Of a stretch of DNA of 64,000 nucleotides, positions 23,025 to 52,262 are shown one piece after another. The stretch covers positions 458,455 through 522,454 of the forward strand of contig OZ246403.1 of the NCBI GenBank assembly GCA_965230925.1. Direction: 5' to 3'. Position 1 is the first letter of the stretch. Each line of letters opens with the position of its first letter. The position numbers were made by a program, and so were the translations under genes. Source of the stretch: an uncultured Candidatus Saccharibacteria bacterium. Lineage in GTDB: Bacteria; Patescibacteriota; Minisyncoccia; Phycocordibacterales; JACOZG01. Under the pieces are notes generated by a model. The model made no database searches. It was not told the origin of the DNA and worked only from the letters and a program-made list of their open reading frames with translations.

Positions 23025-23078
23025 ATGTCTTGCGAGCATAAATTCAAATTGACCGAAGGTGGCGGGTTGTTACAATAA
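23025..23078 (+). pseudogene. degraded duplicate of the 5' end of the 23450 fibre gene (17-codon remnant MSCEHKFKLTEGGGLLQ*)
   Basis: The sequence 23008-23060 (aattagtttttaacccATGTCTtgcgagcataaattcaaattgacc) parallels 23437-23490 (aataatttttaacccATGTCTcaagagaaaaaatttaaattaacg), including the start codon. It encodes MSCEHKFKLTE versus MSQEKKFKLTQ and then terminates. Confidence 0.55.
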
Positions 23079-23082
23079 GTAT

Positions 23083-23439
23083 ATGGGAAAAGAAATCACA
23101 CTCGAATCTCTTGATAATAAGATAGATAGCAAATTTGGCACGCTTGATTCTAAGTTTACATCCCTTGATGCCAAGTTTAATTCCCTCGACACGAAATTTG
23201 ATGTGCTTCAGGAAGTCTTACAAGACAACTTTAAGATTATTGCTGAGCAGTTTAAGACGGTAAATGAGAAGTTAGACCGACACGAAGTGAAACTGGACCA
23301 ACACGACAAGAGATTTGATCAAATTGAGATTAGATTAGATGAACATGAAAGAAAACTCGACTCTTTGACGGAAGTAGTTGGTGATATTAAAGTCGAAGTT
23401 ATGGGCTTGAACCACAGAGTAGAAGTTTTAGAAAAATAA
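23083..23439 (+). CDS. heptad-repeat coiled-coil protein, hypothetical
   Basis: Tandem 7-residue repeats KIDSKFG/TLDSKFT/SLDAKFN/SLDTKFD followed by further coiled-coil sequence. Probable start MGKEITLESL; the track ORF starts 8 codons earlier. Confidence 0.5.
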   Translation: MGKEITLESLDNKIDSKFGTLDSKFTSLDAKFNSLDTKFDVLQEVLQDNFKIIAEQFKTVNEKLDRHEVKLDQHDKRFDQIEIRLDEHERKLDSLTEVVGDIKVEVMGLNHRVEVLEK

Positions 23440-38883: not shown

Positions 38884-38912
38884 TTGACAGTTTTAGTCAA
38901 GTGCGATAGGCT
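38884..38912 (+). promoter_or_regulatory. candidate promoter TTGACA-17-TAGGCT, 7 nt upstream of the TrmB-like gene's likely ATG (leaderless)
   Basis: TTGACA at 38884-38889, 17-nt spacer, TAGGCT at 38907-38912, ATG at 38920. Confidence 0.35.
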
Positions 38913-38919
38913 TTTGGCA

Positions 38920-39711
38920 ATGAATATTGGTCATTTGCCGGGAACGTTTGAGAAAGTGGGTTTATCGCCCAAAGAAGCCCTGGTATATGCGGCTTTAGTA
39001 AGGCTCAACGGAGCCTTTCCTTCTACTCTCGCTGAAGAAACAAAGTTAAATCGGAGTACGGTCTATAAGATTCTCCTTGATCTCTCGGTGAAAGGGCTGG
39101 TTAATGAAATAAAGAAAAGGAACAAAATTTATTACCAGATCGAAAAGCCATCCAAGCTTCTTCGGTATGCCAAAGATCAAGTCACGATTGCCAACGATCA
39201 TCTAGAAACAGTTCAGAAGTTAGTTCCCGATCTTGAGGGGATGTATTCACTTTTTTCTAATAAACCAAAAATCACTTACTTCGAGGGGATTGAGGGAATT
39301 TTATCGATTTATGAAGACCAGGTTGTTACGAATAAAAAATATGAAATGATGGCTTTTGCTAATGCTACCGAGCTGGAAAATGTTTTCCCAGCTAAGTTTT
39401 TTGAAAATTATCGGAGAACGAAAGAAAAAATTGGTATTACCACAAGAGGAATTATTACCGACTCCAAAGAAAACTCCACTTTCATTGAGCGAATGTACGC
39501 GGGATATAAAAAAGAGGTAATTCCCAAAACAAAATTAATTCCGGCCGCCGAGTTTCCTTTTAAGGGTGAGCTCACTATCTATCGAGATAATCGGGTTTCA
39601 ATTGTAAACCTCAATAAAGAGCATCTCACTGGCCTAATTATTGAAGACGAAACTATTTACAATATGATGCGAATGATTTTTGAACTATCGTGGAAGGGGG
39701 CAGGGAAGTAA
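38920..39711 (+). CDS. TrmB-family winged-helix transcriptional regulator
   Basis: N-terminal helix-turn-helix LSPKEALVYAALVRLNGAFPSTLAEETKLNRSTVYKILLDL matches TrmB-type regulators. The start is taken at the internal Met (MNIGHL); the track ORF starts 12 codons upstream at TTG. Confidence 0.6.
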   Translation: MNIGHLPGTFEKVGLSPKEALVYAALVRLNGAFPSTLAEETKLNRSTVYKILLDLSVKGLVNEIKKRNKIYYQIEKPSKLLRYAKDQVTIANDHLETVQKLVPDLEGMYSLFSNKPKITYFEGIEGILSIYEDQVVTNKKYEMMAFANATELENVFPAKFFENYRRTKEKIGITTRGIITDSKENSTFIERMYAGYKKEVIPKTKLIPAAEFPFKGELTIYRDNRVSIVNLNKEHLTGLIIEDETIYNMMRMIFELSWKGAGK

Positions 39712-42454: not shown

Positions 42455-43363
42455 ATGTGGCGGCGGGAAAATGTTAAATGGTTCGTGGTTATCGTTCTTT
42501 TTCTCGCCAATTTTCTTGTCTGGTATGCAGTTCAAGCAGAAGATCGTGGCGGATTGTTAACGGTTGCTTTCTTAGATATCGGTCAGGGCGATTCCATTTT
42601 CATTGATGCGCCAAACGGTAATCAGATTTTGCTCGATGGTGGTCGCGGGCGCCAAGTGCTCGAGGCGCTCGCGGCTGAAATGCCATTTTATGATCGTTCA
42701 CTTGATCTGGTGATTGCTTCGCACCCCGACGCGGACCACATTGGTGGTCTCACTGATGTTTTTGAGAATTATGAAGTAACCGGCTTTCTCGAGCCGGGTG
42801 TGCCGGCCGATACTGGTGTTTATGAGCGACTCCAATCTGATGTTGCGGCCGAAGGAGCTCAAACAATGCTTGCCGAGCGCGGTATGCGCATTGTTCTCGA
42901 TGATCTCCACGGTGTTTATCTCACCATTCTTTTTCCTGACCGAGACCCATCAGGCATGGAAACTAATGAAGCCTCAATTATTGCTAAACTTACTTATGGC
43001 GAGATCGACTTTCTCTTAACCGGTGATTCGCCAGCGAAAATTGAAAAATATTTGACAGGGGTTGATGGGGCAATGTTGCAGGCCGAGGTGCTAAAAGCTG
43101 GTCACCACGGATCGAAAACCTCTACCTCTGACGCTTTTCTTGGGGCTGTGGCGCCTGAATATGCCGTTATTTCTGTGGGGAAAAATAGTTATGGTCACCC
43201 GAGCCCAGAAGTGTTGGATCGACTCGAGGCGGCAAAAATAAAAACCTTTCGTACGGACGAATTGGGGACAATCCTTTTTGCGACCGACGGCGAGAAGATT
43301 TATACTAATTGGACTAGTCTAAGCGGCATTAGAGCGAATGTTGTATCAGAAAATTTATTTTAA
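42455..43363 (+). CDS. ComEC/Rec2 C-terminal-type metallo-beta-lactamase domain protein with its own N-terminal transmembrane anchor
   Basis: TM helix (VKWFVVIVLFLANFLVWYAV), then LTVAFLDIGQGDSIFIDAPNGNQILLDGG...HPDADHIGGL, the MBL motif set typical of ComEC C-termini. 302 aa. Confidence 0.75.
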   Translation: MWRRENVKWFVVIVLFLANFLVWYAVQAEDRGGLLTVAFLDIGQGDSIFIDAPNGNQILLDGGRGRQVLEALAAEMPFYDRSLDLVIASHPDADHIGGLTDVFENYEVTGFLEPGVPADTGVYERLQSDVAAEGAQTMLAERGMRIVLDDLHGVYLTILFPDRDPSGMETNEASIIAKLTYGEIDFLLTGDSPAKIEKYLTGVDGAMLQAEVLKAGHHGSKTSTSDAFLGAVAPEYAVISVGKNSYGHPSPEVLDRLEAAKIKTFRTDELGTILFATDGEKIYTNWTSLSGIRANVVSENLF

Positions 43364-45410
43364 ACTCGGAGTTACTAGCGGACTATTAATCCTAGCCTTG
43401 CTTTTATTTCAGAAATTATCTTTGTCGCCCCTTAGTCAAACTGGCCTTATTAACCAAGGGCCACTCAGTAAACGTTCAATTTCTGTGGTGGCACCGAGTG
43501 AGCCGGAGTTAAGTCCTCTAACCAATCGCCCTCCTCAGGTTTTTGCCGGGTCTGATCAAACCATTAATGCCTCAACCGCCAATCTTTTTGGGACGGCAAA
43601 CGATGATGGTTTGCCCAACCCGCCAAGCCGGCTCAGTTTCCAGTGGCAAAAAGTTGGTGGTCCAGGAGAAGTTTTGTGGGGAAACCAAGAAATGATTCTT
43701 ACTACCGCGTCCTTTTCCGATCCTGGTTCATATACCTTACGCCTCACGGTTTCTGATGGTCTTCTTAGTGCCAGCGATGATCTGGCAATTAATGCTTCTT
43801 GCGCCGGAAATACTCTACCCACGCCGGCCCTGGCTTCGCTGAGCGGAGGAGAAGTGGGGCAGCCTGTTATTTTTAACGCTTCAGGTTCGCACGATTTGGA
43901 TGGGCAGGCGCTTGAGTATAAATTTAACTTTGGTGACGGGGTGACAACAGACTGGTTGGCAACCCCGATAATTCCTCACACCTACAACCAGACCGGGAGC
44001 TATTCAATATTGCTGTGGGTGAGAGACACCTGTGGAGGCGAGTCGGAGCCGCTTATGACCTCCGTGTTGATTGAGGTTGCTGCACCGCATCAAGCTTCCT
44101 TGGTTAGAAATATCAACCCTGGAACGAGTGGCTCTAATCCCACCTTAGCCGCCCAGCTGAATGCTACCACTTTTCTTTTTGCTGCTACCCACAATACTTC
44201 TGGTCGGGAGCTTTGGCGAAGCGACGGCTCAGCTGTCGAAACCAGACTCGTAAAAGACATCAATTTAACTGGTTCCGCAGCCAACTCTTTCCCGCAGTCT
44301 TTTGTCACTTTGAATGACTTGGTTTTGTTTACTGCTGATGACGGTGTTCATGGTCGGGAGTGGTGGCGGAGTAACGGCACGAGCACAGGTACTGCTTTGG
44401 TCAAAGATGTCTATCCAGGCAATGTTGGTTCGGACCCGATTATTATTGGCCAATTAGGAAATGAAATTTATTTTGCGGCGAACGACGGTGTTCATGCTCG
44501 GGAAATATGGAAAACTGATGGTACGGAAGCCGGAACAGTTTTGGTGAGAGACATTAGTTTGACCGGTAATGGCGTGTTGGCTAATGCTCCCGATGTCCGC
44601 AGTGGCGGAGTTTTAGGTGATTACCTGTATTTTGTCGGCAATGACTTAGGTCCAGCTTTTACTGATTGGGAATTGTGGCGCACCGACGGCACCGAGGCAG
44701 GAACAACCCTGGTTAAGAACATTAATCCTACCAGCAATTCATTGCCTGAAGGGTTTTTGAGTGTTGGGTCTAGTTTATACTTTACGGCTTGGGACGGTGT
44801 TCATGGTGAGGAATTGTGGAAAACCAATGGGACTGAAGCAGGAACAATTATGGTTAAAAACATTAATCCCAATGAGGGCTTTGTTTCGTCAGGACCACGG
44901 CGTTTAACTAAATGGAATAACCAAGTTTACTTTTCAGCTGATGATGGAGTTTTTGGGTACGAATTGTGGAAAACGGACGGTTCTCTTGAGGGGACAGTTT
45001 TAGTCACCGACATTTTTCCTGGAGCCAACTCTTCTTTACCCGATGAGTTAATGGTCGGCGGTAATTCTTTCTATTTTGTTGCTGATGACGGTGTTCATGG
45101 TGCCGAACTTTGGCGAACTAACGGTACCGCTTTCGGCACTGCTTTAGTGAAAGACATTTACCCTGGATCAGAAGCGGGTGAAATCAGAGACCTTACTTGG
45201 TTTAACGGGGAGCTTTTCTTTGGGGCCAAAGATAGTCTAGCCAATAATGAACTGTGGCTAAGCGACGGTACGGCACAAGGGACGGCTCAAGTTCAAGAGA
45301 TTTATTCCGGGTTAAACGGAGCTTATCCTAACGGCTTTTTCCCTATAAACAACCGCCTTTATTTTGCTGCAGATAATGGTTTAGTAGGAGTGGAGCTTTG
45401 GGGTTACTAG
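43338..45410 (+). CDS. secreted ELWxxDGT-repeat beta-propeller protein with N-terminal Ig-like (DDGLPNPP) and PKD domains
   Basis: Signal/anchor. One module (AGSDQ...NDDGLPNPPSRLSFQWQKVGGPG...LRLTVSDG) homologous to the repeats of the 2390-aa protein. PKD motif YKFNFGDG. At least 10 repeats of ELW(R/K)(S/T)(D/N)GT..GT.LVKDI.PG. Confidence 0.8.
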   Translation: MLYQKIYFKLGVTSGLLILALLLFQKLSLSPLSQTGLINQGPLSKRSISVVAPSEPELSPLTNRPPQVFAGSDQTINASTANLFGTANDDGLPNPPSRLSFQWQKVGGPGEVLWGNQEMILTTASFSDPGSYTLRLTVSDGLLSASDDLAINASCAGNTLPTPALASLSGGEVGQPVIFNASGSHDLDGQALEYKFNFGDGVTTDWLATPIIPHTYNQTGSYSILLWVRDTCGGESEPLMTSVLIEVAAPHQASLVRNINPGTSGSNPTLAAQLNATTFLFAATHNTSGRELWRSDGSAVETRLVKDINLTGSAANSFPQSFVTLNDLVLFTADDGVHGREWWRSNGTSTGTALVKDVYPGNVGSDPIIIGQLGNEIYFAANDGVHAREIWKTDGTEAGTVLVRDISLTGNGVLANAPDVRSGGVLGDYLYFVGNDLGPAFTDWELWRTDGTEAGTTLVKNINPTSNSLPEGFLSVGSSLYFTAWDGVHGEELWKTNGTEAGTIMVKNINPNEGFVSSGPRRLTKWNNQVYFSADDGVFGYELWKTDGSLEGTVLVTDIFPGANSSLPDELMVGGNSFYFVADDGVHGAELWRTNGTAFGTALVKDIYPGSEAGEIRDLTWFNGELFFGAKDSLANNELWLSDGTAQGTAQVQEIYSGLNGAYPNGFFPINNRLYFAADNGLVGVELWGY

Positions 45411-45650: not shown

Positions 45651-46250
45651 ATGACAATTGACTTCGTTTTTAGTATCGCGATTCTCATTATTTCGGTGGT
45701 GATTCATGAGGTGGCTCACGGTTATGTGGCCGAGGCGCTTGGTGATCCGACCGCGCGCCTCCAAGGTCGGCTTACGCTTAATCCGATTAAGCATCTCGAC
45801 CCGTTTGGTTCATTAATTCTACCCTTACTTCTTTATTATTCTGGTTTGGGGGTAGTTTTCGGCTGGGCCAAGCCGGTGCCCTATAATCCTTACAATTTGC
45901 GGGCCGGGAAATGGGGTCCGGCTCTTGTTGCGGTGGCGGGGCCAATTTCTAATTTAATCCTAGTTTTTGTTTTTACTCTTTTCTTCCAGTTTTTACCAGT
46001 TAGTCCCGCGATTCACCCCATTTTGGGGTTGATTGTTATGGTCAATCTCTCTCTCGCGATTTTCAACCTTATCCCAATTCCACCTCTCGACGGTTCCAAA
46101 ATCCTTTTCGCTCTTATACCTTACCGCTGGCGGGCGATCGAAAACTGGATGAATACCTATTCCTTCATTTTACTTCTCTTTGTTCTCTTCTTCTTGTGGG
46201 ACCTGGTTGCACCGGTCGTTTTGTGGTTATTCTCATTACTTATTGGTTGA
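45651..46250 (+). CDS. site-2 protease family (M50-like) membrane metalloprotease
   Basis: HEVAHG (HExxH) in the first transmembrane helix, then GSLILP...NLIPIPPLDG (LDG motif), typical of small S2P-family proteins. 199 aa. Confidence 0.75.
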   Translation: MTIDFVFSIAILIISVVIHEVAHGYVAEALGDPTARLQGRLTLNPIKHLDPFGSLILPLLLYYSGLGVVFGWAKPVPYNPYNLRAGKWGPALVAVAGPISNLILVFVFTLFFQFLPVSPAIHPILGLIVMVNLSLAIFNLIPIPPLDGSKILFALIPYRWRAIENWMNTYSFILLLFVLFFLWDLVAPVVLWLFSLLIG

Positions 46251-46299: not shown

Positions 46300-46719
46300 A
46301 TGGCGACATTCAATCAATTAATTAAGCGGCCGCGGCAGTCTATCCGGGCCAAGTCACGCACCGTCGGGTTGGCCCGCGGTTTCAATGTGAAGAAAAACCG
46401 CCCGGTGTTCTACCCCTCGCCTTTTAAGCGGGGAGTTTGCGTCCAGGTTAAGACCACTACGCCTAAAAAGCCAAACTCGGCTATTCGGAAGATCGCCCGT
46501 GTTCGCCTCAACAACGGCATGGAAGTCACTGCCTATATCCCAGGTATTGGCCACAATCTCCAAGAGCACTCGGTGGTAATGATCCGGGGCGGTCGGGTGA
46601 AGGATCTTCCAGGTGTGCGGTATCACATTGTTCGCGGTCGTTATGACTCTTCTGGCGTCGACAAGCGAATGCAAGGCCGATCACTTTATGGTGCCAAGCG
46701 ACCTAAGAAAGGTAAATAA
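46300..46719 (+). CDS. rpsL: 30S ribosomal protein S12
   Basis: NQLIKRPR...[19 protein letters not shown]...[34 protein letters not shown] is the S12 signature. 139 aa. Confidence 0.9.
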
Positions 46720-46727
46720 TTTTAATT

Positions 46728-47222
46728 ATGCGACGTAAAGTAAAAAATCGAATTAAAGTAAAGCCTGATTCCCTCTATCAATCCTTGAAAGTGGGGAAGC
46801 TTATTAACTATGTGATGGACTCAGGTAAGAAAAATACCGCCCGACGCTTGGTTTACGGCGCCTTCAATAATATTAAAGAGGAGACCAAGAAGGATCCGAT
46901 GGAAGTCTTTGAAGAAGCGGTTAAGAATACTGGTCCAATGATGGAGCTCCGTTCCCGCCGGGTGGGCGGTGCCAACTATCAGATTCCTCATGAAGTCTCG
47001 CCCGAACGTAAGTTGACCTTAGCGCTCCGCTGGATGGTAGAAGCCGCTTCGAGTAAGAAAGGTAAGCCGATGGCCGAGAAATTGGCCGGCGAGATCTTAG
47101 CTGCCGCGAAGAATGAGGGCGAGGCCGTGAAGAAGCGTGAAATGATCCACCGCATGGCTGAGGCCAACCGCGCCTTTGCCCACTTTGCTCGGACTCAAGT
47201 TAAGCCTAAAGTTGCTGCTTAA
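46728..47222 (+). CDS. rpsG: 30S ribosomal protein S7
   Basis: KKNTARRLVYGAF...ELRSRRVGGANYQIP matches S7 motifs. 164 aa. Confidence 0.9.
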   Translation: MRRKVKNRIKVKPDSLYQSLKVGKLINYVMDSGKKNTARRLVYGAFNNIKEETKKDPMEVFEEAVKNTGPMMELRSRRVGGANYQIPHEVSPERKLTLALRWMVEAASSKKGKPMAEKLAGEILAAAKNEGEAVKKREMIHRMAEANRAFAHFARTQVKPKVAA

Positions 47223-49364
47223 ATGAATCGCGATTATCCTCTGGAGAAGGTTCGGAATTTTGGTATCATCGCCCACATTGATGCGGGTAAAACGACGGTC
47301 AGTGAGCGCATCCTTTTCTACACCGGTGTTTCGCACAAGATTGGTGAGGTGCATGAGGGCGACACTGTCATGGACTGGATGGAGCAAGAGCGTGAGCGTG
47401 GTATTACCATTACCGCCGCGGCCACCACTTGTTTCTGGACTCCCACTTATGCTGGAGGTGATGCCGCCAAAAAGCATCGTTTTAATATTATTGATACGCC
47501 TGGACACATCGATTTCACTATTGAGGTGAAGCGCTCTTTGCGCGTGCTCGACGGCGCGGTAGTGGTCTTCGACGGCGTGTCGGGTGTGGAGCCGCAATCA
47601 GAAACCAACTGGCGCTACGCCGATGAGGGGAAAGTGCCACGCCTTTGCTTTATCAATAAACTCGACCGCATGGGCGCTTCTTTTGAATTCTCATACAGCA
47701 CCATTCTTGACCGGCTCACCAAGCAGGCAGTGCGTTATCAGATCCCAATTGGTCTCGAAGAAAATTTTGCCGGTGTGATCGATCTTCTCCAGAAGAAGGC
47801 TTATGGCTTCGAGGGCGAGAAGGGTCAGACGATCAAAGAAATTCCAATTCCAGCTGATCTCCAAGCTGATGTCGATAAGTATCATGCCGAGCTCGTGGAG
47901 CGGATTGCGGAGACGGACGATACCCTGATGAATGAGTATCTGGAGGGTAAAACGATTGCTTTTGATGTTTTAAAAGTCGCTCTCCGAAAGGCGGTGATTT
48001 CCAATAAAATTGTGCCGGTATTTTGCGGTTCGGCACTGAAGAATAAGGGTGTGCAGCTTGTTCTCGATGGTGTCATTGATTACTTACCTTCGCCGCTCGA
48101 TATCCCGCCCACTAAAGGTATTGATGAGCGAACCGGAGAAGTCATAGAACGTTTGCCTTCCGACGATGCGCCCTTTGCCGCCCTTGCTTTCAAAATTCAA
48201 ACTGATCCTTTCGTTGGTCAACTAGTTTTCTTCCGCGTTTACTCGGGGAAAATTGAAGCTGGTTCATATATTTACAACACTCGAACGCGAACCAAAGAGC
48301 GCGTAGGTCGGATTGTGCGCTTGCACGCTAATGAACGAGAAGAGGTGAAGGTGGTTTTTGCGGGAGAAATTGCCGCGACCGTGGGCTTGAAGGATGTGAA
48401 AACCTCCGATACCTTCTGCGATATTGATAATCCTATTATTCTCGACCAAATTGTGGTGCCCGAGCCAGTGGTGTCGATGAAGATTGAGCCGAAGACCAAG
48501 GCTGACCAAGAGAAAATGGGTATGGCGATGAAGAAGCTTTCTGATGAAGATCCAACGTTTAAAATTAAATCTGACCCAGAAACCTTAGAAACCATTATTT
48601 CGGGCATGGGCGAGCTCCACCTCGAGGTGCTAGTAGAACGGATGAAGCGCGAATTCGGCGTGGAGGCCAATGTGAGCAAGCCGCAAGTGGCGTACAAAGA
48701 GACGATCACGGCCGCCGCCGAGGCGGAAGGCAAGTACATTAAGCAGTCGGGTGGTCGCGGTCAGTATGGTCATGTGCGCTTGCGCGTGAAGCCTCTCGAG
48801 AAGCTTGAGGAGGGGGCCAAGATCCCGAAGAATGTGACGCGCGAGACCGGCTTCGAATTTATTAATGCCATTAAGGGTGGCGTGGTGCCGCAAGAATATA
48901 TTACGCCGGTGGAGAAGGGTGTGCGCGAGGGGATGGAGCGTGGTGTGGTGGCCGGTTTCCAGCTCGTCGATGTTTCTGTCGAACTTTACGATGGTTCTTA
49001 TCACGAAGTGGACTCATCAGAAATGGCCTTCAAAATGGCCGGTTCGATGGCGCTTCAAGAAGCAGCGCGGCGCGCTAAGCCAGTGCTCCTTGAGCCAATT
49101 ATGAAAATTGAAGTCATTGTGCCCGAGAAGTTCATGGGTGATATTACCGGGCACCTCAACTCCAAGCGTGGGCAAATTGAAGGCATGGAAGATCGCGGTA
49201 ATGCCAAGGTGATCCGCGCCAAGGTGCCGCTCGCCGAGATGTTCGGCTACGTTACGACTCTCCGCTCGCAGACCGAAGGCCGCGGCTCCTTCAACATGGA
49301 ATTCGCCGAATACGCGATTATCCCGAACAACGTCGCCCAAAAGATTGTTGAGACGAGACAGTAA
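47223..49364 (+). CDS. fusA: elongation factor G
   Basis: [12 protein letters not shown]...[10 protein letters not shown]-domain, then domains II-V throughout. 713 aa. Confidence 0.95.
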
Positions 49365-49400
49365 TTGCGGAAAAGAAAAACTCACTAATACTTGTTTGAC

Positions 49401-49438
49401 AGGGACCGAAAGCTCAGGCAAGCCGTAGGTCCCTTTTG
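49401..49438. terminator. stem-loop with T-run after fusA (also downstream of the convergent 49414 gene)
   Basis: AGGGACC-(20-nt loop)-GGTCCCT followed by TTTTG. The loop is unusually long, so confidence is moderate. Confidence 0.4.
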
Positions 49439-50082
49439 TCTTTCAAACAACTAGCCACGACCTTCTTGATATTTTTTGTTTCGTTCCATGTTTCCCTCAC
49501 AGTTTTCCTCATATTTGTGTGTTGGGGATATCCTTGATCATGAGCACCCTCCATTAAATCAACAAACTCGATATTAAGTAGCTCGGTAAGCGACTCTTTG
49601 AGGTCGTTATACTGGTTTTCATCTACCCCAACCTCTGTTAATTCGTCATGAAAAGCGTGCCAGGTATAAAAATGGAATAACTCGTGCATTATTATTCCGT
49701 TAGTAAATTTTGAGGCGAAGTATACAAAAAAGTAATTATCCTGAATATTGTAAGTACACCTTTGGTTGGTAGTTAAGTAAGTTGTGATTTTAGATGCCGG
49801 GTAAGAAATGTTAAAAATTTGTTCCATCCGCGCAATGAATGGTTTTTCGATCTTTCTCCAGTTTTGGTTTATGGACTCCAGTGACTTTGTTGTATCAAGG
49901 CCAGTTTGAGAAATAAAAGATTCTAGAAACTTTCGGACCATATTTTCTGTGTAGTTTGGGCCATGTTTATCAATATAGGACTGCTGAAGTTTTGTTGGTA
50001 GCGCGTTGTTTCTTGCTCGGGTGCCAGCAATAAAATTATCTACATCTTTGTCAAGATCATATTTAAATTCTAAGTTGGTCAT
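49414..50082 (-). CDS. HExxH-motif protein, putative zinc metallopeptidase/hydrolase of unknown family, inserted antisense between fusA and tuf
   Basis: 222 aa. IMHELFHFYTWHAFHDELTE contains HExxH plus a downstream His/Glu. No further family assignment is possible by eye. The region is visibly AT-richer than the flanking fusA and tuf genes. Confidence 0.55.
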   Translation of the reverse strand: MTNLEFKYDLDKDVDNFIAGTRARNNALPTKLQQSYIDKHGPNYTENMVRKFLESFISQTGLDTTKSLESINQNWRKIEKPFIARMEQIFNISYPASKITTYLTTNQRCTYNIQDNYFFVYFASKFTNGIIMHELFHFYTWHAFHDELTEVGVDENQYNDLKESLTELLNIEFVDLMEGAHDQGYPQHTNMRKTVRETWNETKNIKKVVASCLKDKRDLRLA

Positions 50083-50130
50083 CGAGGTTAATTATATCAT
50101 CCCAGGCTTTAGCTTGGCTCAGGTAAGGAT

Positions 50131-50159
50131 TTGACGCCGCTATAGCGGTTTGCTAGTAT
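50131..50159 (+). promoter_or_regulatory. candidate sigma70-type promoter for tuf and the S10 operon: TTGACG-17-TAGTAT, with a 12-bp perfect palindrome in the spacer
   Basis: TTGACG at 50131-50136; 17-nt spacer ccgctatagcggtttgc, which contains the palindrome CCGCTATAGCGG; TAGTAT at 50154-50159. Confidence 0.5.
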
Positions 50160-50246
50160 TCTATGGCGCTTTGGGCGCGTCGGTTTTTCTTCTATTAAAT
50201 CTCAAATTAAGAGAAATTATTAAGTAAGTAGTTTAATTTTAAAAAT

Positions 50247-51449
<1,203 letters not shown>

Positions 51450-51474: not shown

Positions 51475-51843
51475 ATGGCCACCAAAGAGAAAAAAACTAC
51501 TACCAAGGCGGTGGCGAAGGAAAAGGATCCTAATAGCCTCCAGAAGATTCGGATTCGTGTCGCAGCCTATGAAAATAAGGTTCTCGACGCGAGTGTGAAG
51601 CAAATTGTAGATACGGCTAATCGTTACGATGCGGTGGTGCGTGGACCAGTGCCACTTCCTACAGAAATTAAGAAATACACGGTCAATCGAAGTTCCTTTG
51701 TGCACAAGAATGCTCGGGAGCAATTCGAAATGCGGATTCATAAGCGTCTCATCGATATTTTGAACCCTTCAGCTAAAATCATCGAACATCTGACCAATCT
51801 GAATCTACCTTCGGCCGTGAATATCGATGTGAAGATGCTATGA
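51475..51843 (+). CDS. rpsJ: 30S ribosomal protein S10
   Basis: KIRIRVAAYENKVLDASVKQIVDTA...GPVPLPT matches S10. 122 aa. Confidence 0.9.
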   Translation: MATKEKKTTTKAVAKEKDPNSLQKIRIRVAAYENKVLDASVKQIVDTANRYDAVVRGPVPLPTEIKKYTVNRSSFVHKNAREQFEMRIHKRLIDILNPSAKIIEHLTNLNLPSAVNIDVKML

Positions 51844-52262
51844 AATTAGTTTACGGAACAAAGCAGGGAATGACGCAAATCTTCGCCGATTCTGGCGAGG
51901 CTCATGCCGCGACGGTGATTAAGGCTGAATCACTTGCTGATTTGGCCGTGGGTGATGTGGTGCGCGTCAGTGGTATTACCAAAGGTCGCGGTTTCCAAGG
52001 TGTGGTGAAGCGCCACGGCTTTAAGGGTGGACCGCGAACACATGGTCAGAAGCACTCAGAGCGTGAGCCGGGCTCGATTGGTGGTGGTTTGCGTACCCGT
52101 GTTCCAAAAGGAATGCGCATGGCCGGCCGTATGGGTGGCAAGCGCCTCACCGTGCGCCACTTGAAGGTGCTTTCGCTCGATCAAGATAAAAACATTCTCT
52201 TTATTTCCGGAGCAACACCAGGTAGACGAGGGACGAAGCTCATGGTAAGTACTAAGGATTAA
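51840..52262 (+). CDS. rplC: 50S ribosomal protein L3 (short form)
   Basis: GTKQGMTQIF...KGRGFQGVVKRHGF...MAGRMGGKRLTV aligns with L3 motifs. 140 aa. Confidence 0.85.
   Translation: MKLVYGTKQGMTQIFADSGEAHAATVIKAESLADLAVGDVVRVSGITKGRGFQGVVKRHGFKGGPRTHGQKHSEREPGSIGGGLRTRVPKGMRMAGRMGGKRLTVRHLKVLSLDQDKNILFISGATPGRRGTKLMVSTKD

What the first reader, a model, noticed from the sequence alone, without database searches (positions are those of the whole stretch)
49414..50082. Antisense, AT-rich HExxH gene inserted between fusA and tuf in the str operon
rpsL-rpsG-fusA-tuf is one of the most conserved gene strings in bacteria. Here a 222-aa protein with an HELFH...H...E zinc-site-like motif is encoded on the opposite strand, exactly between fusA and tuf. 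The insert is visibly more AT-rich than its neighbours. It is flanked by a terminator-like hairpin on one side and a fresh TTGACG-17-TAGTAT promoter for tuf on the other. This looks like a horizontally acquired gene that has split the operon and forced tuf onto its own promoter. The family could not be assigned by eye. Possibilities include a DUF45/WLM-like, SprT-like or ImmA/IrrE-like metallopeptidase.
Basis: partly seen in the sequence, partly recalled or inferred. Interest (0 to 1): 0.6.

Follow-up and report, generated by a model that had tools for sequence, protein, structure and literature searches.

The report
Uncharacterised zinc-hydrolase gene between fusA and tuf
A real, conserved gene for a small zinc-hydrolase-like protein of unknown function sits backwards between the genes for elongation factors G and Tu, but in this group of tiny bacteria (Patescibacteria) that junction is routinely interrupted and tuf normally has its own promoter, so the arrangement is ordinary for the group.

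Summary
A 222-aa ORF (49414-50082, minus strand) lies between fusA and tuf, is AT-rich and carries HExxH. It is a real gene: 165 word-index homologues and 705 cluster representatives, invariant H133/E134/H137/E163, and a confident model (pLDDT 94.9) with HExxH on a long helix and E163 on the next helix. It matches no Pfam, NCBIfam, PADLOC or PHROG model and no solved structure. The only fold resemblance, which is not significant, is to M1/M61 gluzincins. The family is Patescibacteria-wide, with a distant DPANN member.

The placement is lineage-specific: none of the 80 relatives' fusA loci carries it, and none of about 90 homologue loci lies beside fusA or tuf. But the fusA-tuf junction is commonly interrupted in Patescibacteria (median gap about 800 bp; 882 bp here; about 74 bp in other phyla). 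A sigma-70-like tuf promoter is also common in relatives, including those with an uninterrupted junction, so it is not fresh. Low GC is a family trait and GC3 is only 1.3 sd low. There are no mobile-element marks. Most likely this is a cytoplasmic gluzincin-type metallohydrolase of unknown substrate. Interest is low to moderate.

The parts
47223..49364 (+). fusA (EF-G, 713 aa), the last gene of the rpsL-rpsG-fusA unit
   Evidence: ORF list. Pfam GTP_EFTU/EFG domains on the same gene in the source contig. 74% identical to the best EF-G among genome relatives.
49401..49434 (+). Inverted repeat (GGGACC...GGTCCC, 7-bp stem) followed by TTTTGTCTTT on the + strand. A terminator-like hairpin for fusA that overlaps the stop codon and last codons of the antisense gene.
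   Evidence: Sequence, fold and inverted repeat I6. Not more stable than shuffles (z -0.85), so it is only suggestive.
49414..50082 (-). Gene for a 222-aa zincin-like (HExxH...E) protein of an uncharacterised Patescibacteria family
   Evidence: ORF. 165 homologues and 705 cluster representatives. Invariant residues. AlphaFold model with pLDDT 94.9 and pTM 0.90. No family model matches.
49672..49686 (-). Codons for H133-E134-L-F-H137, the HExxH motif inside helix 127-150
   Evidence: Read from the sequence. Invariant in alignments A1 and A2. Helix assignment.
49594..49596 (-). Codon for E163, the invariant Glu in the next helix (155-172) and the proposed third metal ligand
   Evidence: Invariant in A1 and A2. 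Helix assignment. The coordination geometry itself could not be measured.
50091..50099 (-). TGATATAAT, a perfect extended -10 element 8 nt upstream of the ATG of the antisense gene. Candidate own promoter giving a leaderless or very short-leader mRNA.
   Evidence: Read directly from the sequence. Missed by the scan, which requires a -35 match. This is inference and is not tested.
50131..50159 (+). TTGACG-17-TAGTAT (with TG), a sigma-70-like promoter candidate 88 nt upstream of tuf
   Evidence: Scan. Equivalent motifs are enriched upstream of tuf in relatives (13 of 31 against 1.6 expected).
50164..50192 (+). GC-rich hairpin (GCGC TTTGG GCGC) followed by a T run, directly after the tuf promoter candidate. 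Role unknown.
   Evidence: Terminator-like scan. No Rfam match.
50247..51449 (+). tuf (EF-Tu, 400 aa), followed by rpsJ and the S10 cluster

Best explanation
The ORF is an expressed, selected gene for a soluble protein of about 215 aa with a zincin-type catalytic core.

Proposed site and chemistry (inferred from zincin chemistry, not shown):
- H133 and H137 lie on one long helix and the invariant E163 on the following helix. Together they are proposed to hold a Zn2+ ion.
- E134 acts as the general base that activates a water molecule to hydrolyse an amide bond, most likely a peptide bond.
- The nearly invariant Y185, R192 and D182 are candidates for transition-state and substrate contacts.
- The segment around R108-Y111-N112, between the two strands, is a candidate substrate-binding edge.

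The protein belongs to a family that no library describes. The family is widespread in Patescibacteria (Parcubacteria-type lineages) and has a distant member in a DPANN archaeon. It occurs as a free-standing gene in many different neighbourhoods.

In this lineage only, the gene sits in the fusA-tuf spacer, convergent with fusA and divergent from tuf. That spacer is a permissive slot throughout Patescibacteria. fusA ends with a terminator-like hairpin, and tuf typically has its own sigma-70-type promoter in relatives, with or without an insert. Different genes have therefore settled there in different lineages. The gene did not break an intact operon, and its placement says little about its function.
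For: Real gene:
- 165 homologues at E <= 1e-3, the closest non-self at 69% identity.
- 705 cluster representatives at E <= 1e-3 and 392 at E <= 1e-10.
- The same arrangement on all 6 contigs that carry the identical protein.

Catalytic core:
- W75, H133, E134, H137 and E163 are invariant in the diverse alignment. Y111, T166, N170, D182, G184, Y185 and R192 are nearly invariant.
- The model has pLDDT 94.9. HExxH lies in helix 127-150 and E163 in helix 155-172, preceded by a three-stranded sheet.
- The best Foldseek PDB matches are nearly all gluzincin catalytic domains (M1, M61). The best has TM 0.34, 137 aligned columns and 20% identity.
- The only recurrent sub-threshold Pfam hits are zincin families, matching where checked (the query's SprT-like hit, residues 123-145) at the HExxH helix.
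- No hydrophobic N-terminal stretch is evident in the translation (read by eye, no signal-peptide or TM predictor was run).

Permissive slot:
- Six more Patescibacteria loci have no tuf within 3.5-6 kb downstream of fusA.
- The gaps of relatives hold unrelated ORFs on either strand.
- The promoter motif upstream of tuf is enriched in relatives and present at uninterrupted junctions.

Lineage-specific placement.

Not obviously foreign.
Against: - Model coordinates are not exposed, so the metal-site geometry was not measured.
- The His-to-Glu spacing (25 residues between H137 and E163) is longer than in thermolysin or M1. By the helix boundaries, E163 sits about one turn out of register with H137. 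D182 (at least 90% conserved) therefore remains an alternative third ligand.
- Neighbours and fusion partners are mostly nucleotide- or RNA-directed enzymes, not peptidase partners. They include LigT-like 2H phosphoesterase, Pth, NUDIX, nucleotidyltransferases, GrpB and a TehB-like methyltransferase. The substrate may therefore not be a peptide.
- The promoter and terminator are consensus matches only.
Confidence: 0.7

Rival explanations
1. One reading: a recently acquired foreign gene was inserted into an intact rpsL-rpsG-fusA-tuf operon, split it, and forced the evolution of a new tuf promoter.
For: The placement is unique to this lineage. Overall GC is 2.9 sd below the window's genes. A hairpin lies on one side and a promoter-like site on the other.
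Against: The junction is interrupted in most Patescibacteria, with a median gap of about 800 bp. tuf-proximal promoter motifs are enriched in relatives, including those without any insert. Low GC is shared by homologues in other genomes, and GC3 is only 1.3 sd low. The family is native to the phylum. There are no repeats, integrase or tRNA, and no phage, plasmid or viral matches.
Confidence: 0.1
2. An ImmA/IrrE-like regulatory protease that cleaves a partner XRE-type repressor.
For: In one subclade (7 loci) a 70-73-aa XRE HTH gene lies 4 nt upstream of the homologue. M78 gives sub-threshold hits in 2 of 34 members.
Against: There is no XRE gene next to it in the window or in most loci. The M78 model is not matched at threshold. 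The 7 loci belong to one closely related group.
Confidence: 0.07
3. A zincin-fold hydrolase acting on a nucleotide-derived or small-molecule substrate rather than on peptides. From memory, not checked here: the HExxH protein YgjP (DUF45) of E. coli is listed as a UTP pyrophosphatase, which would be a precedent.
For: Fusions to a TehB-like SAM methyltransferase (408-aa forms) and to GrpB (E = 3e-44). A TehB-like methyltransferase is encoded separately with a 4-nt overlap. Nucleotidyltransferase, NUDIX, GNAT and metallo-beta-lactamase-fold neighbours also occur.
Against: No partner is constant. The fusions are confined to one subclade. The only fold resemblance is to peptidases.
Confidence: 0.15
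4. A translation- or tRNA-linked enzyme, for example one that processes peptides or RNA-linked products released by Pth or LigT. On this reading its position between EF-G and EF-Tu is functionally meaningful.
For: Immediate neighbours with 3-4-nt gaps or overlaps include peptidyl-tRNA hydrolase (8 loci), LigT-like 2H phosphoesterase (6 loci, in both gene orders, across members 37-60% identical to the query), class II Asp/Asn-tRNA synthetase and tRNA-binding proteins. In a control set of 93 ORFs lying 3-4 genes away, no family exceeded 2 members, and neither Pth nor LigT was among those listed.
Against: Small Patescibacteria genomes are rich in translation genes. Several of the counted loci are near-duplicates. 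Most loci show unrelated neighbours. The fusA-tuf slot holds unrelated genes in other lineages.
Confidence: 0.12
5. Not a gene: a chance antisense ORF in an AT-rich spacer.
For: None beyond the absence of annotation names.
Against: Hundreds of homologues with invariant catalytic residues and a confident fold.
Confidence: 0.01

Closest known systems
Gluzincin catalytic domains (MEROPS clan MA(E): thermolysin M4, aminopeptidase N family M1, M61)
   Same: HExxH lies on a long helix, an invariant Glu on the next helix, and a conserved Tyr further downstream. A small sheet precedes the active-site helix. These are the only (weak) Foldseek matches.
   Different: There is no significant sequence or fold score. 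The His-to-Glu spacing is 25 residues, not 18-20. There is no GxMEN exopeptidase motif. The protein has about 215 aa, with its own N-terminal five-helix region (residues 10-90) containing the invariant W75.
Minimal stand-alone zincins (minigluzincins, SprT-like PF10263, DUF6782, DUF5700, DUF3267)
   Same: Small soluble single-domain HExxH proteins. They give sub-threshold Pfam hits; the one checked (the query's SprT-like hit, residues 123-145) falls at the HExxH helix.
   Different: None reaches its Pfam threshold (SprT-like: 11.5 bits against 25.6). There is no zinc-ribbon or DNA-binding extension as in SprT/Wss1.
ImmA/IrrE (M78, PF06114) with an XRE partner
   Same: An HExxH protein directly downstream of an XRE HTH gene in one subclade.
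   Different: The M78 model is not matched. The partner is absent in the window and in most loci.
Insertions between ribosomal or translation operons in other bacteria (Brandis et al. 2019, PMC6735719; abstract as listed)
   Same: Conserved translation gene strings become separated by inserted genes at operon boundaries in some lineages.
   Different: Here the break lies inside what is a single str operon in E. coli. In Patescibacteria, however, it behaves as an operon boundary with its own tuf promoter.

Membership tests
Zincin / gluzincin metallohydrolases | HExxH motif located in an alpha-helix | tested here: met
   H133-E134-x-x-H137 is invariant in 83 and in 34 sequences. It lies in predicted helix 127-150 of a model with pLDDT 94.9.
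Zincin / gluzincin metallohydrolases | Third metal ligand is a Glu on the helix that follows the HExxH helix, positioned to complete the site | tested here: inconclusive
   E163 is invariant and lies in helix 155-172. The spacing is longer than in M1 or M4. D182 is an alternative ligand.
Zincin / gluzincin metallohydrolases | Significant fold similarity to a solved zincin | tested here: inconclusive
Zincin / gluzincin metallohydrolases | Binds Zn2+ and hydrolyses amide bonds | not testable with these tools
   Needs biochemistry.
SprT-like (PF10263) | Pfam model matched at the gathering score | tested here: not met
   11.5 bits against a 25.6 cut-off, covering residues 123-145 only. 3 of 34 family members match, the best at E = 0.0044.
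ImmA/IrrE (Peptidase_M78, PF06114) | Pfam model matched, and an adjacent XRE-type repressor gene | tested here: not met
   No hit for the query. 2 of 34 members match at E >= 0.016. An XRE neighbour occurs in only 7 of 64 called upstream neighbours, all in one subclade, and not in the window.
DUF45/YgjP and WLM | Pfam model matched | tested here: not met
   Absent from the hits even at E <= 10 for the query. Not among the 25 most frequent of 44 families at E <= 1 for the 34 members.
M1 aminopeptidases | GxMEN motif plus HExxH-X18-E | tested here: not met
   There is no GxMEN motif; the conserved upstream motif is R-C-(T/P)-Y-N. The spacing is 25 residues.
Mobile element or genomic island insertion | Flanking repeats, an integrase or transposase, a tRNA target, and foreign composition | tested here: not met
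   Only chance-level short repeats. No tRNA within 30 kb. The neighbours are ribosomal genes. GC3 is within 1.3 sd. No phage, plasmid or viral homologues.

The most novel reading that the evidence does not exclude
The family could be a translation- or tRNA-linked zincin shared by the two great groups of ultra-small symbionts (Patescibacteria and DPANN). It would work with peptidyl-tRNA hydrolase and LigT-like 2H phosphoesterases on peptide- or RNA-linked products. Its placement between EF-G and EF-Tu in this genome would then be one more instance of that link.
Probability: 0.1. Interest if true: 0.6.

Novelty: new member of a known kind. Interest (0 to 1): 0.3.

Why it matters
The practical value is mainly corrective. 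In Patescibacteria the fusA-tuf junction behaves as an operon boundary. It has its own tuf promoter and a variable cargo of inserted genes. Gene-order arguments taken from E. coli or Bacillus therefore do not carry over, and a gene found there should not be assumed to be foreign or functionally tied to elongation factors.

The protein itself is one of many conserved, model-less families of these reduced-genome organisms. A confident fold, five invariant residues and a handful of recurrent partners (Pth, LigT-like, methyltransferase and GrpB fusions) make it a tractable target for biochemical characterisation. Nothing here points to a new kind of system.

Tried and rejected
- Pfam, NCBIfam, PHROGs and PADLOC scans of the query gave nothing significant. 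A Pfam scan of 34 diverse members gave only sub-threshold zincin hits.
- Profile searches of PDB sequences with both alignments found no relative.
- Foldseek against the PDB and BFVD gave no significant match.
- A viral-contig scan and tblastn against phage and plasmid collections found nothing.
- Rfam (E <= 1) on 49200-50400, Rfam at gathering score on the whole window and a tRNA scan found nothing in the spacer.
- The search for flanking repeats found only chance-level matches. The 11-nt pair at 49412 and 50117 (10 of 11 identical) is within my estimate of about 6 such pairs by chance in 1.2 kb.
- The tuf-upstream regions of relatives could not be aligned.
- The metagenome scan with the diverse alignment A2 failed for lack of a conserved stretch and was repeated with A1.
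- hhalign of the family against a second HExxH protein next to a homologue (L165) gave only 34% probability.
- Two literature searches found nothing on this family or on the fusA-tuf junction in Patescibacteria.
- The reading 'chance ORF' is rejected, and so is 'fresh promoter'.

Full report
**1. What is in the sequence**

The window carries rpsL (46300-46719), rpsG (46728-47222) and fusA (47223-49364). An 882-bp spacer follows, then tuf (50247-51449), rpsJ, rplC, rplD and rplW, all on the + strand. The spacer holds one long ORF on the minus strand, 49414-50082 (222 aa, ATG start). It is convergent with fusA and divergent from tuf. The same arrangement is on all six public contigs that encode the identical protein.

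GC falls to 0.35-0.36 inside the ORF, against 0.51-0.59 in the adjacent coding sequence.

- A GGGACC/GGTCCC hairpin lies at 49401-49434, followed by a T run on the + strand. In that orientation it would terminate fusA, not the ORF. It overlaps the ORF's stop codon and is not more stable than shuffled sequence (z -0.85).
- TTGACG-17-TAGTAT with a TG extension lies at 50131-50159.

I add two elements:
- A perfect extended -10 (TGATATAAT, 50099-50091 on the minus strand) lies 8 nt before the ORF's ATG. This suggests an own promoter and a leaderless-type mRNA. It is read and is an inference.
- A GC hairpin plus T run lies at 50164-50192, just after the tuf promoter candidate. Its role is unknown.

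The spacer contains no Rfam family and no tRNA.

**2. It is a real gene of an undescribed family**

- The word-index search found 165 homologues. The closest non-self is 69% identical and most are 207-227 aa. The only names given are 'hypothetical protein', from Patescibacteria MAGs (Taylor-, Portnoy-, Harrison- and Zambryskibacteria).
- An exhaustive profile search found 705 cluster representatives at E <= 1e-3 and 392 at E <= 1e-10.
- One distant cluster carries a DPANN archaeon label.
- In 83 close sequences H133, E134, H137, E163, D182, G184, Y185, R192, R108 and W75 are among the invariant columns.
- In 34 diverse sequences (22-52% identity to the query) W75, H133, E134, H137 and E163 stay invariant. 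Y111, T166, N170, D182, G184, Y185 and R192 stay at 90% or more.
- No Pfam, NCBIfam, PHROG or PADLOC model matches.
- Scanning all 34 diverse members gives only scattered sub-threshold zincin hits: SprT-like, M78, DUF6782, DUF5700 and DUF3267.
- No solved structure is a sequence relative.

**3. Fold**

AlphaFold2 with the 83-sequence alignment gives pLDDT 94.9 and pTM 0.90. The elements are, in order:
- a short strand (residues 3-7);
- five helices (10-90);
- two strands (98-104 and 117-121);
- a 24-residue helix carrying HExxH (127-150);
- a second helix carrying E163 (155-172);
- two C-terminal helices.

This is the zincin layout: a sheet, an active-site helix and a ligand helix.

Model coordinates are not exposed, so I could not measure the metal site. 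By the helix boundaries, E163 lies about one turn out of register with H137. D182 therefore remains a possible third ligand. E163 is the better candidate because it alone is invariant.

**4. Is the placement special?**

*For the gene, yes.*
- tblastn finds no homologue in any of 80 fusA loci from species-representative genomes.
- None of 80 metagenome loci that carry a homologue has fusA, tuf, rpsG or rpsJ within 5 kb.
- Nine homologues looked up individually, including the closest ones, sit in unrelated contexts.

*For the junction, no.*
- In 33 Patescibacteria loci where both genes are visible, the fusA-tuf gap is 115-4663 bp. The median is about 800 bp, and only six gaps are under 200 bp.
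- Six further loci have no tuf within 3.5-6 kb downstream of fusA.
- In 19 loci from other phyla the gap is 30-209 bp, median about 74.
- The gaps of relatives hold unrelated ORFs on either strand. The window's 882 bp is typical of the phylum.

**5. Is the tuf promoter fresh?**

No.
- 13 of 31 relatives have a sigma-70 motif matching at least 10 of 12 positions within 150 nt upstream of tuf. Shuffles predict 1.6, and 1 of 31 control windows inside tuf reached that score.
- The motif is present at uninterrupted junctions: L032 (115-bp gap, 11 of 12), L053 (10 of 12) and L078 (10 of 12).
- L026 has TTGACC-17-TAGTAT with TG, almost the window's site.

tuf is therefore probably its own transcription unit across the group. 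That would explain why the spacer tolerates insertions.

**6. Is the gene foreign?**

This is unproven and not favoured.
- Its GC (0.375) is the second lowest of 64 ORFs (mean 0.481, sd 0.037). GC3 (0.399 against 0.477, sd 0.062) is only 1.3 sd low.
- Homologues in five other genomes are likewise 0.04-0.12 lower in GC than their flanks. AT-richness is therefore a trait of the family, whose proteins are rich in Asn, Lys, Phe, Tyr and Ile.
- Repeats around the gene are at chance level.
- There is no integrase or tRNA nearby, and no match in viral, phage or plasmid collections.
- Relocation within the genome, or transfer within the phylum at some past time, are both possible.

**7. Clues to function**

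I called the ORFs flanking the homologue in the 80 metagenome loci. This gave 125 immediate neighbours, which I scanned against Pfam.

| Neighbour family | Loci | Notes |
|---|---|---|
| Peptidyl-tRNA hydrolase | 8 | 3-nt gap in five loci, 44-nt in three near-identical loci |
| XRE HTH | 7 | 4-nt gap in six, 2-nt in one; one subclade |
| LigT-like 2H phosphoesterase | 6 | 4-nt overlaps, both gene orders, members 37-60% identical to the query |
| NUDIX | 5 | |
| GNAT | 3 | |
| Nucleotidyltransferase | 3 | |
| Radical SAM | 3 | |
| Class II tRNA synthetase | 2 | also |
| tRNA-binding domain | 2 | |
| LD-carboxypeptidase | 2 | |

In one subclade the protein is fused to a TehB-like SAM methyltransferase (408-aa forms) or to GrpB (E = 3e-44). 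Elsewhere the same methyltransferase is a separate gene with a 4-nt overlap.

In a control set of 93 ORFs lying 3-4 genes away, no family had more than two members. There is therefore a modest enrichment for RNA-, tRNA- and nucleotide-directed enzymes. No partner is constant, and several of the loci are near-duplicates.

**8. Verdict**

The most likely reading is a cytoplasmic gluzincin-type metallohydrolase of an uncharacterised Patescibacteria (and DPANN) family. It was parked, in this lineage, in a spacer that is a common landing site because it lies between a transcription end and an ancestral promoter.

*Shown:* the gene is real; the catalytic-type residues are conserved; the predicted fold is confident and its secondary-structure order fits a zincin; the placement is lineage-specific; the junction is variable in relatives; the promoter motif is enriched in relatives.

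*Inferred:* metal binding, hydrolytic chemistry, the substrate, and use of the promoter and terminator.

The finding is a new member (an undescribed family) of a known kind. Interest is low to moderate.

Noticed in passing
Loci L011-L053, L057, L059, L078 (fusA-tuf spacers), compared with L054-L090: In Patescibacteria the fusA-tuf spacer is an insertion hot spot: 115-4663 bp, median about 800, with several loci having no tuf within 6 kb. In other phyla it is 30-209 bp. The cargo differs between lineages and lies on either strand.
   Followed up: partly
L035:8125-8535, L044:4570-4959, L045:5637-6014, L047:8062-8418, L048:8181-8468, L041:4391-4684, L050:4394-4882, L031:9385-9657 (all + strand, between fusA and tuf): A recurrent small protein (90-162 aa) occupies the spacer in at least 8 of 33 relatives. 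Its N-terminus resembles Phd/YefM or RelB antitoxins (sub-threshold Pfam, E about 2e-3). It has a low-complexity acidic middle and a conserved C-terminal tip, (L/V/D)(E/D)D(L/I)P(F/L). The tip resembles the C-terminal tail of SSB as I recall it. The gene is not present in the window.
   Followed up: partly
window 51840-52262 (+): Ribosomal protein L3 is only 140 aa here. The Pfam L3 match covers residues 35-117 only. Short L3 forms (140-153 aa) also occur in L030, L032, L042 and L023, whereas most relatives have 187-236 aa.
   Followed up: partly
window 50164-50192 (+): A GC-rich hairpin plus T run lies 5 nt after the -10 element of the tuf promoter candidate, at the very start of the putative tuf leader. 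It could be an attenuator, a remnant terminator or chance. No Rfam match.
   Followed up: no
L099:1196-2422, L100, L101, L105, L170 (408 aa); L102, L108:1575-2768 (371 and 397 aa); P0058; P0106: Within one closely related subclade, the zincin-like protein is fused at its C-terminus to different domains: a TehB-like SAM methyltransferase, GrpB, a nucleotidyltransferase-like region (P0058; read by eye, no Pfam support), or an unknown domain (P0106). It is preceded by an XRE HTH gene and followed by a conserved 176-aa protein with no Pfam match.
   Followed up: partly
L165:2914-3501 (-) and L166:719-1306 (-): A second, 195-aa HExxH protein (VLMHELLHIIL) is encoded divergently, 625 bp from the homologue. 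hhalign to the family gives only 34% probability, but the alignment spans the Trp helix through to HExxH. It is possibly a very distant paralogue.
   Followed up: partly
window 23059-23439 (+) and 38884-39711 (+): These are the two other lowest-GC ORFs of the window (0.367 and 0.389). One is a 126-aa coiled-coil protein with a sub-threshold XhlA-like hit. The other is a 275-aa TrmB-family HTH regulator.
   Followed up: no
window 45651-46250 (+) and 43338-45410 (+): A short (199-aa) M50-family membrane metalloprotease lies directly upstream of rpsL. It is preceded by a 690-aa protein with PKD domains and a run of ELW/EPW-type repeats.
   Followed up: no
L056, L067, L079, L083, L086, L088 (Acidobacteria / Vicinamibacterales): In these loci fusA is followed directly by rpsJ with no tuf between them. 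The string is therefore also broken, in a different way, outside Patescibacteria.
   Followed up: no
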